A stretch of 31,782 nt of DNA. Origin: a virus. Its lineage: Duplodnaviria; Heunggongvirae; Uroviricota; Caudoviricetes. The position numbers and the translations under genes are program-made. How positions within the stretch are numbered: the first letter of the stretch is position 1; each line of letters begins with the position of its first letter. This document shows positions 24,896 through 31,782 of the stretch, in pieces. Under the pieces are notes generated by a model that searched no databases, was not told the DNA's origin, and was given only the letters and a program-made list of their open reading frames with translations. Where the stretch lies: IMG/VR virus record IMGVR_UViG_2645727991_000022. One strand, written 5' to 3'.

Positions 24896-25111
24896 TCATC
24901 GGCCTATTGTGTAGCTATGCTTGTAGTTAATACTGATATATTTATGTTTGGCTGTTATTGAATAGTCATCAATGAATAGGCTGTAGGCTTCATCAATCGC
25001 TATGTGAGCCGATATTAGTACATCATCACGTGAATAGTCATAGCCTGACATAATGCCGTCTGTGATGGTTGTAGAGTCTTTTGGGAAGTGTAGGATTATT
25101 GATATGCACAT
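24896..25111 (-). CDS. small hypothetical protein
   Basis: 71-aa ORF between the putative cos region and the EAL gene. No motif recognised; may not be coding. Confidence 0.3.
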   Translation of the reverse strand: MCISIILHFPKDSTTITDGIMSGYDYSRDDVLISAHIAIDEAYSLFIDDYSITAKHKYISINYKHSYTIGR

Positions 25112-25115
25112 TTGT

Positions 25116-25147
25116 ATACCCCTATGATGTTTGGTCTATAGGGGTAT
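25116..25147. other. perfect 10-bp inverted repeat hairpin downstream of the EAL gene
   Basis: ATACCCCTAT (25116-25125) and ATAGGGGTAT (25138-25147) with a 12-nt loop. Lies 12 nt beyond the EAL stop on the minus strand. No clean U-tract on either strand. Confidence 0.5.
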
Positions 25148-25159
25148 TTACTGTGTTAG

Positions 25160-25834
25160 TTAAAGCAGGGTGTATACCTTGTCGAATGGTACTGATCTGT
25201 AGAGGTAGCCTTGCACCGCCGTTACTCCACAATCACGTAGTACTGATAGCTCTTTCTGTTGCTCTACTCCCTCTACGATTACATAGGGGCAATACTGCAT
25301 GATGTTCTTCATCAATAAGCTGAAGGTAGGCTTCTGGATTTCCTGACGGTAGAACGCTCTATCAATCTTTACGGCCTCATAGCATCCAGAAGTTAGTGCT
25401 GCGACATTGGCACGGCCTGAACCAAGATCATCGAGGAACAAGCGATAGCCAACGTTTAACAGGGTCTTGAGTACTGGATGATTGATCCCCTGCTCCAAGC
25501 CTTCAAAGTTCTCTGAGATCTCCAACCTGACATACTCCAGCTTATCCAGTAGCTGTATCACCTCTCTATCAAACACACACAGCCTTGCTTGTATGGTGTC
25601 AATGTTAACATTGCAGTAAAGCCGGTTATCCCTGAACCATGCCGCACGTACTTCTATGGCCTGTAGTTGTCGTATTAGTAGTTCCCTCTTCTCTTCAGCA
25701 TCCATAGCCATGATGAAGTACTTACTGTTCAGTACTTGCATACCTTCACTATGAAAGCGGGTTAATAGTTCACAGCCTACGAACTGGCCTGAAGTTGTCA
25801 TGATTGGTTCTGCTATGAAAGTAGTGGTAATCAT
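25160..25834 (-). CDS. EAL-domain protein (c-di-GMP phosphodiesterase-like, stand-alone)
   Basis: 224 aa with EAL-domain signature positions in order: ELLTR (EAL-x-R), LEISENF (E..E), DDLGSG (DDFGTG-like), KIDRAF (K-x-D-x-x-F), EGVEQ (EGVE) and QGYLYRSVP (QG[YF]). AAGGGA lies 9 nt upstream of the ATG. Confidence 0.8.
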   Translation of the reverse strand: MITTTFIAEPIMTTSGQFVGCELLTRFHSEGMQVLNSKYFIMAMDAEEKRELLIRQLQAIEVRAAWFRDNRLYCNVNIDTIQARLCVFDREVIQLLDKLEYVRLEISENFEGLEQGINHPVLKTLLNVGYRLFLDDLGSGRANVAALTSGCYEAVKIDRAFYRQEIQKPTFSLLMKNIMQYCPYVIVEGVEQQKELSVLRDCGVTAVQGYLYRSVPFDKVYTLL

Positions 25835-26020
25835 CCATTATCATCCCTTAACTCGATAGATAATGAATTATTGATCGGCATTACCTATTATTGTAGTCAT
25901 GACCTCACTAAAGAAATCAACTTAACTTGTTGAAAATGATCGTTTTTATCTATTTTATGGTGTTTTGTTTGGCACTGTATATAATCACAGTATTAGCAGT
26001 TTTGTTCGGAAGGTTAAGAA

Positions 26021-26335
26021 ATGGGCAATAAGAACGGTTACGATCCATCCATACGTAGAGGTGTACACCAGTTCTCCAACAACGGGGTATGGTTCACGGT
26101 CTGTTATCGTGGAAGTGCTCTTGAGCAATTCAAGTTTGGTGATCGGGTGATATTTGAAGGTTCATTAGACGGGGTCTTCTGGCTGGGGACGGTTGAAAGG
26201 GATTGTTTCGTACTGATTAGCGAAACACCATTTAAAGATGTTCTGGATGCTGTGAGTTATCTACATGCCGAACAACGTGTATATAAACAACATGATGATG
26301 ATTGGTTTTGTGGACAAGAAGAACTACCGTTCTAG
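26021..26335 (+). CDS. hypothetical protein (first gene of a three-gene plus-strand operon)
   Basis: 104-aa soluble ORF. A TATAAT element lies about 40 nt upstream and AAGG about 9 nt before the ATG. Followed after 15 nt by the DUF2971-like gene. Confidence 0.5.
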   Translation: MGNKNGYDPSIRRGVHQFSNNGVWFTVCYRGSALEQFKFGDRVIFEGSLDGVFWLGTVERDCFVLISETPFKDVLDAVSYLHAEQRVYKQHDDDWFCGQEELPF

Positions 26336-26362
26336 ATTGTTGCTTAAAAGGTGGTTATTATT

Positions 26363-30227: not shown

Positions 30228-30252
30228 GCCTCTTCTACAGAGGCTTTTTTTT
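30228..30252 (+). terminator. rho-independent terminator of the HNH gene
   Basis: GCCTCT-TCTAC-AGAGGC hairpin followed by T8, 14 nt after the TAA stop. Confidence 0.8.
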
Positions 30253-30565
30253 AATAAACTATCAAAAGATACTTTATTGCGGGCGTGACTCCGTACGAAC
30301 TCAAGAATACTTTGATTAATTACTTTGATAGTAGCTCCTGGGGTTTTGTTACTATGTCAGTACTGTTTCTTTTCTGAGCGAAAGCGAGTAAAATCCCTCG
30401 CATTTTTTTCGAGTACTAGCGAGAAAAAACGCAAGGATCGGTTTAATTTGTGTTTCAGTGACTATACGACCGCAGGGAGTGTAGGCACTCAAAGACCGAT
30501 TTGGACGTAGTTCAAGAGGTCTTAATTAATTCAACAATAAGAATGAAAGAATAATATTAATATAA

Positions 30566-30735
30566 GGGGGGCTAATGGCACACCCCCACATATAAAACCC
30601 TTGAAAGCACAAAATATACATATAAATCAGTATAGTGCACACTATATGTAGTGTTTCATTAGCCCATTAGCACATACATATTCAAACCATTAGCACATAA
30701 TTAGCACATATGTCTGGGCTATTATGTGCTAATGG
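30566..30735. repeat. cluster of symmetric elements and 13-mer iterons
   Basis: G6-N11-C5 inverted repeat (30566-30587, containing CTAATGG). A 16-bp palindrome TATAGTG-CA-CACTATA (30631-30646). CCATTAGCACATA at 30664-30676 and 30687-30699, ATTAGCACATA at 30700-30710, and the inverted copy TATGTGCTAATGG at 30723-30735. Confidence 0.7.
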
Positions 30736-30737
30736 TT

Positions 30738-31223
30738 TTAGATCAATCCTGACAAGTACTTGATCAGATCATTTATCGGTACTCCAGATTTCACCTTTTC
30801 GTCTAACACCTTCTGCTGCTGCTCGTCCAGTTGCTTACCTGCTACTTGATTCACAACACGCTTCATTGAACCTTTTAGGGGAATGCCCTGTACTATGAGT
30901 AGCTCTAGTGCCTGTGAAACGAGCTTAGAAACAGTCTTATACTTGTCTTCCTGTGACTTACCCTGTAGTTGCATTTTGGTGATTGCACCAGTACTACGCA
31001 TGAGGTTTATGGTGTATAGAGTTTGTGCTCTTGTTATGTACTCACACTTACGCATAACTTCATAAATTTCCTCTGAATCGACTTTATTACGTCCAAGTGA
31101 TCTACATCCCTGAATAGCATTGTTGATTGCTTCCTTTGCTTCCCTTGATAGTTCTTTATACTTGATGTTTTTTACTTCTTTCTGTACTACACGGTTATCG
31201 TGTGGTTTCTCTATGTTTGCCAT
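30738..31223 (-). CDS. hypothetical helical protein
   Basis: 161-aa charged ORF with no recognised motif. Its 3' end abuts the iteron cluster. Confidence 0.5.
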   Translation of the reverse strand: MANIEKPHDNRVVQKEVKNIKYKELSREAKEAINNAIQGCRSLGRNKVDSEEIYEVMRKCEYITRAQTLYTINLMRSTGAITKMQLQGKSQEDKYKTVSKLVSQALELLIVQGIPLKGSMKRVVNQVAGKQLDEQQQKVLDEKVKSGVPINDLIKYLSGLI

Positions 31224-31255
31224 GATACATACCTTATAAATGATGTTAATTAATT

Positions 31256-31290
31256 AGGCACTTGGTGAGTAAAACCAAGTGCCTTTTTTA
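31256..31290. terminator. strong hairpin with T-run between two minus-strand genes
   Basis: AGGCACTTGGT-GAGTAAA-ACCAAGTGCCT (11-bp perfect stem) followed by TTTTTTA on the plus strand. The minus-strand side is only moderately U-rich, so the orientation it acts in is ambiguous. Confidence 0.55.
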
Positions 31291-31782
31291 TTACTTGCTG
31301 TTTAGTAGTGCTGTACTAAGTACTGGATAGTTACTATACTTAGTTGCCAGATTCACTATACAAATACGGCGATGTGTAAGATATGCTTGGTGTGCTTCAT
31401 CTTCTGTTTTGAATGTACCGTAATACTCCTGTACACCGTTGTAAGTTGATTTAGCTACCCAACTATTGAAAACCTTCTGAACTCCCTTCTTATGTTTACC
31501 GTAACCACCTCTGAATAATTGATTTACTTCGTGTGGTACGAACATACAAGTGTTTGGTGAATAGTGGTTAGCTCCTAATATATCCTTATCTACATCCCAA
31601 CCACTAATACTATTTTCTATGTACCAGTTGTAGTAGTTACTGAAAGTATACCATTCATCACAAATAGTTGTGTTTTGATAACCAATGCGTTTTAGTCTTG
31701 AATGCATACTATGCCATTTCTGTAGTGCTTCTTTATATAGGTGTAGATATACCTGGCCTTTTAGGTCATTTATTTTTTTCAT
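31291..31782 (-). CDS. AP2-domain DNA-binding protein (homing-endonuclease-associated type)
   Basis: 163 aa. C-terminal GVQKVFNSWVAKSTYNGVQEYYGTFKTEDEAHQAY fits the AP2 pattern (G.......W.A.....G....LG.F.T.EEAA.AY). The N-terminal part (DEWYTFSNYYNW...GWDVDKDIL...YSPNTCMFVP) resembles phage HNH/AP2 homing-endonuclease-like proteins. The start codon is the last 3 nt of the window. Confidence 0.6.
   Translation of the reverse strand: MKKINDLKGQVYLHLYKEALQKWHSMHSRLKRIGYQNTTICDEWYTFSNYYNWYIENSISGWDVDKDILGANHYSPNTCMFVPHEVNQLFRGGYGKHKKGVQKVFNSWVAKSTYNGVQEYYGTFKTEDEAHQAYLTHRRICIVNLATKYSNYPVLSTALLNSK

What the first reader, a model, noticed from the sequence alone, without database searches (positions are those of the whole stretch)
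24896..31782. Roughly 7-kb mixed-strand accessory island upstream of the packaging genes
In contrast to the 20-kb co-directional structural operon, this segment has alternating strands, individual terminators, long structured intergenic regions, and genes typical of cargo: EAL, DUF2971-like, DUF3800-like, HNH, AP2. That pattern is what I would expect of a variable moron or defence hotspot.
Basis: inference. Interest (0 to 1): 0.6.

Follow-up and report, generated by a model that had tools for sequence, protein, structure and literature searches.

The report
Prophage cargo hotspot with SOS switch
This 7-kb stretch is the non-structural arm of a small Enterobacter prophage: a conserved frame (a LexA-controlled small gene, a membrane protein, an STM1697-like EAL protein, a regulator with its own DNA repeats) into which related phages have swapped different anti-phage-type genes, which makes it a familiar kind of prophage cargo hotspot and not a new kind of system.

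Summary
Window 24896-31782 has nine ORFs with four strand switches. The EAL, DUF2971 and DUF3800 calls are confirmed. One protein has an invariant HNH-like motif. The "AP2" gene matches phage HNH-endonuclease families only.

About 30 phages sharing the terminase and portal carry different genes here. Their cargo includes UzuA, JukA and methyl-directed restriction enzymes, so gene turnover with defence-type cargo is real.

Four features are backbone, not cargo:
1. A 104-aa gene (i2) with a canonical LexA box 28 nt upstream. The box is present in 66 of 72 phage loci that encode an i2 homologue.
2. A membrane protein (i4).
3. An EAL-like gene at the head of the packaging operon. It is closest to the Salmonella anti-FlhD4C2 factor STM1697. 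The window copy keeps the catalytic residues; most relatives have lost them.
4. An AP2-like gene, an orphan gene with its own iterons, and a conserved hairpin element.

The host element is a ~34.4-kb serine-integrase prophage inserted in a ybhA-like gene. It has no recognisable repressor or replication module, so this "island" is almost its whole control arm.

Verdict: a new member of a known kind (prophage accessory/defence hotspot), joined to a probable SOS induction operon. All functions are inferred.

The parts
31291..31782 (-). i8, 163 aa. AP2-like / degenerate HNH-family DNA-binding protein. This is a backbone position, filled in relatives by i8 homologues or by a NUMOD4+HNH_3 protein.
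   Evidence: phrog_953 2.2e-34. No Pfam, NCBIfam or PDB hit. Homologues sit at the same position in L003, L005, L018 and L019. The alternative protein c8 is NUMOD4+HNH_3.
30738..31223 (-). i7, 161 aa. Orphan gene that is swapped as a unit with the repeats downstream of it. Candidate DNA-binding regulator or replication initiator.
   Evidence: No family hit. L003 replaces window 30490-31218 with another orphan gene, c38. L005 has a 69%-identical homologue whose repeats have a different sequence but the same 11/23-nt spacing.
30657..30738 (.). Iteron array of five or six copies of (A)TGTGCTAATGG in both orientations. It includes a perfect 18-bp inverted repeat that starts at the i7 stop codon.
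   Evidence: the repeat finder. This array explains the spurious miRNA-like Rfam hits. It contributes to the fold z-score of -5.9.
30355..30532 (-). Conserved non-coding element with two hairpins, lying downstream of the variable regulator gene. It is either a leader or promoter of the rightward transcript, or an origin/priming site.
   Evidence: 93% identical to L018, although TerL is only 64% identical. nhmmer finds it in L003, L005, L006, L012/L031, L018 and L022, always in terminase orientation at the same position. 5 of 22 predicted pairs show compensatory changes. No Rfam family matches.
30227..30245 (+). Intrinsic terminator after i6.
   Evidence: 7-bp stem followed by T7.
29477..30214 (+). 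i6, 245 aa. HNH-like (beta-beta-alpha-Me motif) N-terminus joined to a body of unknown fold. Stand-alone cargo gene.
   Evidence: Only 15 homologues among 5.8 billion proteins, none with a Pfam hit. Invariant C7, C10, E18, H19, P21, P22, S41, C42, H45, N46. AF2 model pLDDT 80, pTM 0.83, with no PDB fold match. Homologues sit in other mobile-element cargo spots without DUF3800.
29292..29348 (.). GC-rich inverted repeat, TCACGCCCCCCAC(N)GTGGGGGGGCGTGA, in the divergent DUF3800/i6 intergenic region. Function unknown.
27882..29051 (-). DUF3800 protein, 389 aa, RNase H-like. Single-gene mobile cassette.
   Evidence: Pfam 9.5e-10 and phrog_12991 7e-130. DE motif at residues 40-41 and QxxD at 314. 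70%-identical copies in unrelated prophages share DNA homology only across the ORF, 27904-29051. A second DUF3800 type (c9) occupies another slot in six relatives.
27822..27839 (-). Terminator of the DUF3800 gene. It overlaps the 3' end of i4.
27188..27832 (+). i4, 214 aa. N-terminal membrane anchor with a conserved EWGSxSDWxS motif, followed by a variable helical C-terminal domain. Backbone anchor and last gene of the LexA-box operon.
   Evidence: 23 cluster members across relatives, with only the N-terminal ~90 aa conserved. Hydropathy peak at residues 8-30. Homologues are all unnamed, have no Pfam hit and come from Enterobacterales only.
26351..27172 (+). DUF2971 protein, 273 aa, predicted ADP-ribosyltransferase-like. 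Cargo inside the operon.
   Evidence: Pfam 7.2e-07, PADLOC PDC-S31 8.4e-37, phrog_1762 3e-42. Present in only 5 of ~30 relatives, and at varying positions. DUF2971 is described as ART-like (PMC12522546). The DUF2971 protein Aristaios is an experimentally shown Abi system (PMC11381338).
26021..26335 (+). i2, 104 aa, phrog_2100. First gene of the LexA-box operon. Candidate SOS-induced induction factor or antirepressor.
   Evidence: 18 relatives carry it at the same position, with an invariant C-terminal ..DDWF..Q.ELPF. No Pfam or NCBIfam hit. AF2 modelling failed at pLDDT 44.
25973..25992 (.). LexA (SOS) box CACTGTATATAATCACAGTA, with a TATAAT hexamer inside it, 28 nt upstream of the i2 start codon.
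   Evidence: It is the only CTGT-N8-ACAG in the window. 17 of the 19 boxes found in 605 kb of related loci lie at this position. The box is present in 66 of 72 loci encoding an i2 homologue, as 40 sequence variants, 12-29 nt from the ATG.
25160..25834 (-). Stand-alone EAL protein, 224 aa, of the STM1697/YdiV clade. Canonical catalytic residues are retained. First gene of the packaging-direction operon and a backbone anchor.
   Evidence: Pfam EAL 3.3e-22. PDB best hit STM1697, 1.8e-42, 36% identity with no gaps. PdeH 27% identity. E22, R26, N77, E105, E108, D135, D136, K156, E188 and Q208 align with the catalytic residues of TBD1265. Most relatives carry truncated, degenerate versions.
24741..25111 (-). 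i0. A 126-aa gene in relatives, interrupted here by an in-frame TGA (TGG to TGA) at 24896-24898, which leaves a 71-aa ORF.
   Evidence: The same 71-aa call is made in identical prophages.
24596..24740 (.). True intergenic region upstream of TerS. It is a recombination junction where homology to relatives starts or stops.
   Evidence: Breakpoints at 24657 (L004), 24676 (L002), 24682 (L006) and 24721 (L035).

Best explanation
Window 24596-31782 is the control-plus-accessory arm of a ~34.4-kb serine-integrase prophage of the Enterobacter cloacae complex. It consists of a conserved frame with gene-exchange slots.

Frame, in packaging direction (window - strand):
- AP2-like i8.
- Orphan gene i7 with its own iterons.
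- A conserved hairpin element.
- A leftward operon (window + strand) led by i2 and closed by the membrane protein i4.
- A divergent EAL-like gene that heads the terminase operon.

The i2 promoter carries a LexA box over its -10 region. The i2-DUF2971-i4 operon is therefore predicted to be silent in the lysogen and switched on by DNA damage. By analogy with LexA-controlled antirepressor operons (Gifsy dinI-gfoA-irsA, 186 tum, N15 antC), i2 most likely couples prophage induction to the SOS response (inferred).

Three slots take up foreign single genes or small systems by recombination at the conserved anchors: TerS to EAL, i2 to i4, and i4 to the hairpin element. In this phage the cargo is a DUF2971 ADP-ribosyltransferase-like protein, a DUF3800 RNase H-like protein and an HNH-like nuclease. 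In relatives the cargo includes UzuA, JukA and methyl-directed restriction enzymes. The cargo most likely protects the lysogen, or the induced cell, against other phages by abortive or nucleolytic mechanisms (inferred from family membership).

The EAL-like protein most likely acts on host motility or c-di-GMP. It could do this by binding FlhD as STM1697 does, and/or, in this phage, by hydrolysing c-di-GMP (inferred).
For: Shown by computation.

1. Turnover.
- Close relatives differ upstream of TerS, and the homology breakpoints cluster at 24430-24721, 30490 and 31218.
- There are 13 arrangements in 19 loci for the TerS-EAL slot. The i2-i4 slot is empty in six loci and has five different fillings elsewhere.
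- The 72 loci that carry i2 show more than 55 arrangements.

2. Defence-type cargo in the same slots: UzuA 1.9e-54, JukA 1.3e-70, mREase_II 2.9e-63, an HNH mREase_IV-like protein at 3.8e-8, MTase_II, DUF3800 of two types and DUF2971/PDC-S31 at 8.4e-37.

3. Cassette behaviour.
- DUF3800 homology to other prophages stops at the ORF ends.
- i6 homologues lie in a P2/186-like prophage between cI and int, in an island with ApeA, and in a related Citrobacter element, all without DUF3800.
- L035 carries the same block (24721-30490) at 94% identity joined to a TerS that is only 41% identical.

4. Frame.
- Gene counts across relatives: i4 23, EAL-like 19, i2 18.
- The hairpin element is present in seven loci at the same position.
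- The iterons co-vary with the upstream orphan gene.

5. LexA box: (66 of 72 loci).
- The gaps between i2, DUF2971 and i4 are 15 nt each, with no terminator between them.
- Precedent for LexA-controlled antirepressor operons outside the immunity region: PMC3121763.

6. Whole-element context.
- Host modC, a ybhA fragment, serine integrase, a 50-aa gene, i8 ... lysis genes, a HAD hydrolase, a second ybhA fragment, host pgl.
- No gene in the element has a repressor or replication family hit.

7. EAL.
Against: - No function was tested. All defence roles rest on family matches, and PDC-S31 is only a candidate system.
- DUF3800 and i6 have no PADLOC defence hit (apart from a 2.8e-4 partial hit for i6).
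- If the operon really is LexA-repressed, DUF2971 and i4 would not be expressed in an undamaged lysogen. That fits a role in the phage's own induction or lytic cycle at least as well as a role in defence.
- i2 has no detectable similarity to known antirepressors. Its match to DinI is not significant (E 0.57) and its structure could not be modelled.
- No cognate repressor was identified.
- The promoter scan is not above chance.
- The anchors are separable. i4 occurs without i2, i2 occurs without i4, and in 41 of 72 i2 loci the divergent neighbour is not EAL-like.
Confidence: 0.6

Rival explanations
1. The segment is simply the phage's own early/regulatory region. All nine genes serve the phage life cycle (induction, replication, host takeover), and the variability is ordinary lambdoid-type mosaicism with no role in defending the lysogen.
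For: - The prophage has no other place for regulatory or replication genes.
- The LexA box predicts expression at induction, not in the resting lysogen.
- i7 with its iterons and the hairpin element look like a control or origin module.
- Five of the nine genes are positionally conserved.
Against: - The same slots in relatives hold UzuA, JukA and methyl-directed restriction enzymes, which are defence genes and not life-cycle genes.
- DUF3800 and i6 are on their own strands with their own terminators, and they occur as isolated cassettes in unrelated mobile elements.
- DUF2971, DUF3800 and i6 are absent from most relatives, which are presumably viable.
Confidence: 0.2
2. i2-DUF2971-i4 is one three-gene SOS-induced toxin or abortive-infection module, comparable to a colicin-type or Rex-type unit. 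In this reading i2 is a regulator or antitoxin, DUF2971 is an ADP-ribosylating toxin and i4 is a membrane effector. The alternative it replaces is an induction switch with hitch-hiking cargo.
For: - The three genes are tightly packed behind a single LexA box.
- DUF2971 lies next to an i4-type gene in L009, L017, L114 and L126 as well.
- DUF2971 relatives (DarT, AbiGi, Aristaios) are toxins or Abi effectors (PMC12522546, PMC11381338).
Against: - i2 with its LexA box occurs in about 40 loci with no i4 or DUF2971 downstream, often as a lone gene facing opposite-strand genes.
- The slot between i2 and i4 is empty in six relatives and filled with unrelated genes in others.
- DUF2971 is found on either side of i4.
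Confidence: 0.12
3. On the EAL gene only: it is an active PdeH-like c-di-GMP phosphodiesterase, a lysogenic-conversion enzyme that lowers c-di-GMP, and not an STM1697-like FlhD4C2 binder.
For: - All canonical metal and catalytic residues are present and align with TBD1265 and PdeH.
- The best NCBIfam model is PdeH, at 4.7e-31.
- STM1697 itself has lost four of these residues.
Against: - The protein is clearly closer to STM1697 (36% identity, 159 bits, gapless) than to PdeH (27%, 77 bits).
- The PdeH model score of 108 bits is below its cut-off of 190.
- Loop 6 reads DDLGSGRAN where the canonical sequence is DDFGTGYSS.
- 7 of the 11 FlhD-contact residues of STM1697 are identical, including F160, L172 and L173 (PMC5622320).
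- Most homologues at this position are truncated and cannot be enzymes, yet they keep that helix.
Confidence: 0.35
4. The cargo genes are counter-defence (anti-defence) genes that the phage uses during infection or induction, not defence genes that protect the lysogen.
For: - SOS-coupled expression would coincide with the lytic cycle.
- Nucleases and ADP-ribosyltransferases are also used by phages against host systems (general knowledge).
- An EAL enzyme could in principle degrade cyclic-dinucleotide signals.
Against: - The PADLOC matches in relatives are to defence proteins (UzuA, JukA, mREases), and the DUF2971 match is to a defence candidate.
- DUF3800 and i6 are transcribed independently of, and opposite to, the neighbouring operons.
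- No similarity to any described anti-defence protein was found.
Confidence: 0.08

Closest known systems
Prophage accessory ('moron') and defence hotspots, e.g. P2/P4 hotspots and lambda bor, lom and rexAB (from my own knowledge of the literature)
   Same: The variable gene content sits at a fixed position between conserved anchor genes. The cassettes have their own strand and terminator. Known defence genes (UzuA, JukA, mREases) appear in the same slots in relatives.
   Different: The phage family is different: no INPHARED phage shares DNA with the window, and the best TerL identity there is 33%. One slot lies inside a LexA-box operon. The anchors (i2, i4, EAL-like) are uncharacterised families.
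LexA-controlled antirepressor operons of prophages: Gifsy dinI-gfoA-irsA, coliphage 186 tum, N15 antC (PMC3121763)
   Same: A small phage gene outside any immunity region lies directly behind a canonical LexA box that overlaps the promoter. Further genes ride in the same operon. The prophage lacks a cleavable CI-type repressor.
   Different: i2 has no detectable homology to GfoA, Tum or DinI; only a C-terminal DDWF motif is shared (E 0.57). No cognate repressor is known. Antirepressor activity is untested.
STM1697 and YdiV (RflP), EAL-like anti-FlhD4C2 factors of Salmonella and E. coli (PDB 5hxg, 4es4; PMC5622320)
   Same: A stand-alone EAL fold of ~225 aa. The alignment to STM1697 is gapless at 36% identity. 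The FlhD-contact residues F160, K167, L172, L173, K175 and Y180 are conserved. Most phage homologues are catalytically degenerate, like STM1697 and YdiV.
   Different: The gene is phage-borne and sits at the head of a packaging operon. The window copy keeps every canonical catalytic residue that STM1697 and YdiV have lost. H176 is Asn. FlhD binding is untested.
Aristaios (Lactococcus plasmid DUF2971 Abi system; PMC11381338) and PADLOC candidate PDC-S31
   Same: A single DUF2971 protein of ~270-320 aa. It has the W-x-H-Y-A and ExE-type motifs, and it matches the full length of the PDC-S31 profile (8.4e-37).
   Different: Here it is embedded in a three-gene LexA-box operon of an enterobacterial prophage. 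Similarity to Aristaios itself was not measured. No phenotype is known.
DUF3800 proteins associated with retron type VII, with Cas12a2/Cas13 loci and with the DUF3800-I to -XI RNA motifs (PMC7736814, PMC10910872, PMC5737381)
   Same: A Pfam DUF3800 domain with an N-terminal DE motif and a C-terminal QxxD motif. The gene is carried on a mobile genetic element.
   Different: There is no reverse transcriptase, no CRISPR locus and no Rfam DUF3800, drum or skipping-rope RNA nearby, even at E <= 10. It is a stand-alone 389-aa prophage gene.

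Membership tests
Prophage variable accessory/defence hotspot | Gene content at a fixed position differs between phages that share flanking core genes | tested here: met
   There are 13 arrangements in 19 loci between EAL and TerS, and five fillings plus an empty state between i4 and i2. L001 and L002 (TerL 95% and 87%) lack the window's genes.
Prophage variable accessory/defence hotspot | The slots contain recognised anti-phage systems in at least some members | tested here: met
   UzuA 1.9e-54, JukA 1.3e-70, mREase_II 2.9e-63; PDC-S31 8.4e-37 in the window.
Prophage variable accessory/defence hotspot | The cargo of this phage protects the lysogen against phage infection | not testable with these tools
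   This needs plaque assays with the lysogen, or with cloned genes, against a phage panel.
LexA-regulated (SOS) gene | A CTGT-N8-ACAG box close to the consensus TACTGTATATATATACAGTA overlaps the promoter | tested here: met
   25973-25992 matches 16/20, contains TATAAT and lies 28 nt from the ATG. The box is conserved in 66 of 72 i2 loci.
LexA-regulated (SOS) gene | LexA binding and DNA-damage induction | not testable with these tools
   This needs EMSA or ChIP, and mitomycin C induction in lexA+ and lexA(Ind-) hosts.
LexA-controlled antirepressor (Tum, GfoA, AntC type) | Sequence or fold similarity to a known antirepressor | tested here: not met
   No Pfam, PHROG-function or NCBIfam hit. DinI comparison gives E 0.57. 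The AF2 model is unusable at pLDDT 44.
LexA-controlled antirepressor (Tum, GfoA, AntC type) | Binds and inactivates the prophage repressor; sufficient for induction | not testable with these tools
   No repressor has been identified, and genetics would be needed.
Catalytically active EAL c-di-GMP phosphodiesterase | Conserved E(A/L)L Glu, Arg, Asn, ExxE, DD, Lys, EGxE Glu and QG Gln | tested here: met
   E22, R26, N77, E105, E108, D135, D136, K156, E188 and Q208 align with TBD1265 and PdeH. The equivalent of TBD1265 E546 is ambiguous (Met or Asp).
Catalytically active EAL c-di-GMP phosphodiesterase | Canonical loop 6 (DFG(T/A)GYSS) and measurable hydrolysis | tested here: inconclusive
   The loop reads DDLGSGRAN. 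Activity cannot be tested here.
STM1697/YdiV EAL-like anti-FlhD4C2 factors | Closest sequence relatives; stand-alone EAL-only protein | tested here: met
   STM1697 1.8e-42 and YdiV 1.3e-17 are the top PDB hits. Identity is 36%, gapless.
STM1697/YdiV EAL-like anti-FlhD4C2 factors | Loss of catalytic residues and no c-di-GMP binding | tested here: not met
   The window protein keeps them. Most relatives at this position do meet this feature.
STM1697/YdiV EAL-like anti-FlhD4C2 factors | FlhD-contact residues (V115, L116, L136, V147, F160, K167, L172, L173, K175, H176, Y180 of STM1697) | tested here: inconclusive
   7 of 11 are identical and one more is conservative, with F160, L172 and L173 kept (residues from PMC5622320). 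Binding is untested.
DUF2971 / PDC-S31 / Aristaios | DUF2971 domain above the Pfam threshold and a full-length PDC-S31 match | tested here: met
   30.9 bits against a cut-off of 22. PDLC04990 at 8.4e-37 over residues 16-267.
DUF3800 with associated structured RNA | A DUF3800-I..XI, drum or skipping-rope RNA motif next to the gene | tested here: not met
   No Rfam hit in the window at gathering threshold or at E <= 10, nor in 10 related loci. The upstream 425 nt fold at z = -0.96.
HNH (beta-beta-alpha-Me) nuclease | CxxC / (D/E)H / N / CxxH-type metal and catalytic motif | tested here: met
   C7, C10, E18, H19, C42, H45 and N46 of i6 are invariant in 13 homologues.
HNH (beta-beta-alpha-Me) nuclease | Match to a curated HNH model or a solved HNH fold | tested here: not met
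   No Pfam or NCBIfam hit. No PDB sequence hit. No Foldseek hit below E 0.1.
AP2 DNA-binding domain | Match to an AP2 domain model | tested here: not met
   i8 has no Pfam hit at E <= 0.1 and no PDB hit. It matches only PHROG HNH-endonuclease families, whose C-terminal parts it covers.

The most novel reading that the evidence does not exclude
Three linked readings remain open.

1. i2 (phrog_2100) may be a previously unrecognised, widespread family of LexA-controlled prophage induction factors. It would stand in for a CI-type switch in a family of minimal (~34 kb) serine-integrase siphoviruses that have no recognisable repressor or replication genes.
2. The operon behind i2 may have become a landing pad for defence cargo.
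3. The same phages may carry, at the head of their packaging operon, phage-borne relatives of the Salmonella anti-FlhD4C2 factor STM1697. The window copy would then be a still-catalytic intermediate, and these phages would reprogram host flagellar expression or c-di-GMP when they are induced or resident.
Probability: 0.3. Interest if true: 0.6.

Novelty: new member of a known kind. Interest (0 to 1): 0.45.

Why it matters
- **A defined hotspot.** The analysis maps a prophage cargo hotspot, with named anchors and breakpoints, in an undescribed but common family of Enterobacter, Citrobacter and Phytobacter prophages. The hotspot can be mined for new defence genes. Candidates include the rare HNH-like i6 family, two DUF3800 types, the i4 membrane family, and c4, a 187-aa gene that lies next to TerS in 17 relatives.
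- **A testable SOS prediction.** The LexA box in front of i2 is conserved in about 60 independent sequences. One reporter fusion could test whether these phages sense DNA damage without a CI-like repressor.
- **A link to flagellar regulation.** The phage-borne STM1697-like proteins connect a host flagellar regulator family to phages. The window copy, which keeps the catalytic residues, offers a natural series from active EAL enzyme to degenerate protein binder.

Tried and rejected
- **Megablast against INPHARED phages.** Neither the island nor the structural genes gave any match, so relatives had to be found through TerL in IMG/VR and GTDB.
- **A DUF3800-associated structured RNA in the long intergenic regions.** Rejected. 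There is no Rfam hit at gathering threshold or at E <= 10. The 425 nt upstream of the gene are not significantly structured. Homology to other DUF3800 loci stops at the start codon.
- **DUF3800 + i6 as a two-gene system.** Rejected. Neither gene's homologues carry the other as a neighbour.
- **i2 as a DinI/Tum relative.** Only a DDWF motif is shared (E 0.57).
- **i2 structure.** AF2 gave pLDDT 44, which is unusable; no fold search was run.
- **i6 fold.** The model is good (pLDDT 80), but no PDB match falls below E 0.1.
- **i7 and i8 against PDB sequences.** Nothing significant.
- **Promoter scan.** Not above chance, so it was not used as evidence.
- **miRNA-like Rfam hits at 30675-30747.** These are artefacts of the perfect iteron hairpin.
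- **EAL as anti-CBASS or another cyclic-nucleotide sponge or nuclease.** Considered, but no evidence was found.

Full report
**1. What is in the sequence**

The window's structural genes run on the - strand and are lambda/HK97-like:
- TerS at 24017-24595.
- GpA-type TerL at 22189-24105.
- Portal, a protease-capsid fusion, tail genes and a J-like tip protein follow.

Upstream of TerS lie nine ORFs with four strand switches. I number them i0 to i8 from the TerS end:

| ORF | Coordinates | Strand | Note |
|---|---|---|---|
| i0 | 24896-25111 | - | |
| i1 | 25160-25834 | - | EAL |
| i2 | 26021-26335 | + | |
| i3 | 26351-27172 | + | DUF2971 |
| i4 | 27188-27832 | + | |
| i5 | 27882-29051 | - | DUF3800 |
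| i6 | 29477-30214 | + | |
| i7 | 30738-31223 | - | |
| i8 | 31291-31782 | - | |

- EAL (Pfam 3.3e-22), DUF2971 (7.2e-07) and DUF3800 (9.5e-10) are confirmed.
- DUF2971 also matches the PADLOC defence candidate PDC-S31 over its whole length (8.4e-37).
- The 'HNH' protein i6 has no curated-model hit. Its 13 homologues share an invariant CxxC..EH.PP..SCxxHN motif.
- The 'AP2' protein i8 matches only the C-terminal parts of PHROG HNH-endonuclease families.

Other sequence features:
- Terminator-like sites are about twice the chance number (12 against 5.5 +/- 2.7). Promoter-like sites are at chance.
- Of the long non-coding stretches, 30215-30737 is truly structured (z = -5.9).
- 29052-29476 is not structured overall (z = -0.96).
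- 24596-24895 is largely the tail of i0. An in-frame TGA replaces a Trp codon here (L003 has the intact 126-aa gene).

**2. Whole-element context**

Exact-protein look-ups place the window in Enterobacter cloacae-complex genomes (source names). The order is:
- host modC;
- a 188-aa fragment of a HAD (ybhA-like) hydrolase;
- a large serine recombinase (606 aa);
- a 50-aa gene;
- i8 ... [the window] ... lysis genes;
- a 235-aa gene;
- a complete phage-borne HAD hydrolase (window 1-843);
- a 107-aa HAD fragment;
- host pgl.

The prophage is therefore ~34.4 kb, and its integration splits the host hydrolase gene. No gene in it has a repressor or replication family hit. The 'island', together with the integrase and the 50-aa gene, is the entire non-structural part of the element.

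**3.

Finding relatives:
- No INPHARED phage shares DNA with the window, and the best TerL identity there is 33%.
- IMG/VR and GTDB gave 33 loci with TerL at 62-97% identity. They include prophages of Buttiauxella, Phytobacter and Pseudescherichia.

Near-identical relatives:
- L003 is collinear with the window from 12173 to 30490 (91% identity).
- L003 swaps 30490-31218 (i7 and its repeats) for another orphan gene, then resumes homology.
- L035 has the block 24721-30490 at 94% identity, but its TerS is only 41% identical. The block therefore moves between packaging modules.

Other relatives lose homology at or just upstream of TerS:

| Locus | TerL identity | Homology to window ends at |
|---|---|---|
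| L001 | 95% | 24430 |
| L002 | 87% | 24676 |
| L004 | 78% | 24657 |
| L006 | 73% | 24682 |

These four carry other genes upstream.

ORF clustering across all loci shows a frame that recurs at 25-60% protein identity, much lower than TerL. In packaging direction the frame is:
- a 50-60-aa gene;
- i8, or a NUMOD4+HNH_3 gene;
- a variable orphan gene, or a helicase-like or ATPase gene;
- a conserved non-coding element;
- slot C;
- i4 on the opposite strand (23 members);
- slot B;
- i2 on the opposite strand (18 members);
- an EAL-like gene (19 members);
- slot A;
- TerS.

Slot content:
- Slot A has 13 arrangements in 19 loci.
- Slot B is empty in six loci and has five other fillings.
- Recognised cargo in relatives is UzuA, JukA, a type II methyl-directed restriction enzyme, an HNH type IV-like enzyme, a methyltransferase, a group II intron, an 8xMP membrane protein and a second DUF3800 type.
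- A small protein with a lipobox-type signal peptide also recurs.

In the window only DUF2971 (5 loci), DUF3800 and i6 (near-identical relatives only) behave as cargo. Two further results support that:
- DUF3800 copies at 70% identity in unrelated prophages share homology only across the ORF.
- i6 homologues sit in a P2/186-like prophage between cI and int, in an island with ApeA, and in a related Citrobacter element.

**4. The LexA box**

Aligning the i2/EAL divergent regions revealed a canonical SOS box.
- In the window it is CACTGTATATAATCACAGTA at 25973-25992.
- It is the only CTGT-N8-ACAG in 31.8 kb.
- It encloses a TATAAT hexamer and lies 28 nt before the i2 start codon.
- One such box per window is expected by chance about half the time. 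The evidence is therefore its position and its conservation.

Conservation:
- 17 of the 19 boxes found in 605 kb of related loci lie exactly here.
- A search with an i2 profile recovered 72 viral loci.
- 66 of those 72 loci have a box matching 14-18 of 20 positions, 12-29 nt from the start codon (56 of 60 distinct upstream sequences).
- The boxes occur as 40 sequence variants that nearly all preserve CTGT..ACAG.
- The six exceptions include partial gene matches.

Operon structure:
- i2, DUF2971 and i4 are separated by 15 nt each, with no terminator between them. They are predicted to form one SOS-inducible operon.
- In many i2 loci the gene stands alone facing opposite-strand genes. i2 itself is therefore the conserved SOS target.

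The closest precedent is the family of LexA-controlled antirepressor operons of Gifsy phages, 186 and N15 (PMC3121763). Homology to these was not found, and the i2 structure could not be modelled.

**5. The EAL protein**

Sequence relationships:
- The best solved relative is STM1697 (1.8e-42; 36% identity, gapless), followed by YdiV.
- Both are EAL-like proteins that do not bind c-di-GMP and that inhibit FlhD4C2 (PMC5622320).
- PdeH is more distant (27% identity). The NCBIfam PdeH model scores below its cut-off.

Residues:
- The window protein keeps every canonical catalytic residue: E22, R26, N77, E105, E108, D135, D136, K156, E188 and Q208.
- STM1697 has lost four of these.
- 7 of the 11 STM1697 residues that contact FlhD are identical, including F160, L172 and L173, whose mutation abolishes binding (PMC5622320).

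Relatives:
- Most homologues at this position are 170-195 aa. They lack the ExxE, the second Asp, the Lys and the EGxE Glu, but they keep that C-terminal helix.
- The conserved role at this locus is therefore unlikely to be catalysis.
- The window copy, L003 and L010 may do both jobs.
- No paper in the searchable library links EAL-like proteins, prophages and FlhDC.

**6. The right-hand 1.5 kb**

- Directly after the i7 stop codon lie five or six copies of TGTGCTAATGG in both orientations.
- The 69%-identical i7 homologue of L005 has TATGTGGTTATT repeats with the same 11/23-nt spacing.
- Loci with other orphan genes at this position have other repeats.
- A conserved element follows, at 30355-30532. 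It is 93% identical to L018 although TerL is only 64% identical, and it has two hairpins with compensatory substitutions.
- In some relatives the same position holds a helicase-like or P-loop protein.
- This looks like a DNA-binding protein with its own sites, next to an origin or a late-transcript leader. It is phage backbone, not cargo. Which of the two it is remains open.

**7. Verdict**

The segment is a real gene-exchange hotspot with defence-type cargo. It is built on, and interleaved with, the phage's own control genes:
- a probable SOS induction operon;
- a regulator or origin module;
- a conserved EAL-like host-modulating gene.

Hotspots of this kind are well known, so I rate it a new member of a known kind with moderate interest. 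The LexA-controlled i2 family and the phage-borne STM1697-like proteins are the parts most worth an experiment. All functional statements are inferences from sequence, context and family membership.

Noticed in passing
window 1-843 (+), with host flanks in L046 906-1472 and L051 8662-8985: The prophage is inserted inside a host HAD-family (ybhA-like) hydrolase gene between modC and pgl, leaving fragments of 188 aa and 107 aa. It carries its own complete 280-aa HAD hydrolase (~40% GC) at its end, possibly as a replacement for the disrupted host gene.
   Followed up: partly
window 24896-24898: An in-frame TGA replaces the TGG codon found in L003. It truncates i0 from 126 to 71 aa. Identical prophages in several Enterobacter assemblies share the truncation.
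   Followed up: yes
window 1608-3746: The lysis genes lie at the far end of the element, after the tail genes: a holin-like gene at 1608-1919(-) and a lysozyme at 3279-3746(+). They are interleaved with a SegE-type GIY-YIG homing-endonuclease-like gene at 2824-3252(-).
   Followed up: partly
window 29292-29348: A GC-rich inverted repeat (13-14-bp arms, C6/G7 runs) lies in a 33% GC intergenic region between DUF3800 and i6. Its function is unknown.
   Followed up: no
window ~25868-25885 and 25930-25950; aligned relatives: A conserved motif, AAAAA(T/C)GATCA(A/T)T..TCAA..TTA, contains a GATC site. It lies between the LexA box and the EAL start in 1-3 copies per phage. It could be an operator or promoter element of the packaging-direction operon.
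   Followed up: no
L030 9982-13635; L030 3001-4524: In this relative the TerL match is split into three pieces spread over 3.6 kb, so the gene carries an insertion. The island also carries a group II intron reverse transcriptase/maturase.
   Followed up: no
L011/L032 8640-10507; L024/L033 and L025: TerL matches in these relatives fall into two overlapping pieces in different frames. This could be a frameshift or a sequencing error near residues 70 or 170.
   Followed up: no
17 relatives, gene immediately upstream of TerS on the opposite strand (e.g. L030 8872-9435): A 187-206-aa gene (cluster c4) with no Pfam or PADLOC hit is the commonest neighbour of TerS in the family. It is absent from the window.
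   Followed up: partly
whole window: The phage has ~38% GC (island 32-42%). From my own knowledge, the named hosts (Enterobacter, Citrobacter, Phytobacter, Buttiauxella) have about 50-55% GC.
   Followed up: no
38 of 72 i2 loci (e.g. L090, L082): In a second sub-family the divergent neighbour of the LexA-box gene i2 is not EAL-like. It is an unrelated 112-aa protein (cluster n2), and i2 there stands alone facing opposite-strand genes, some with signal peptides.
   Followed up: partly
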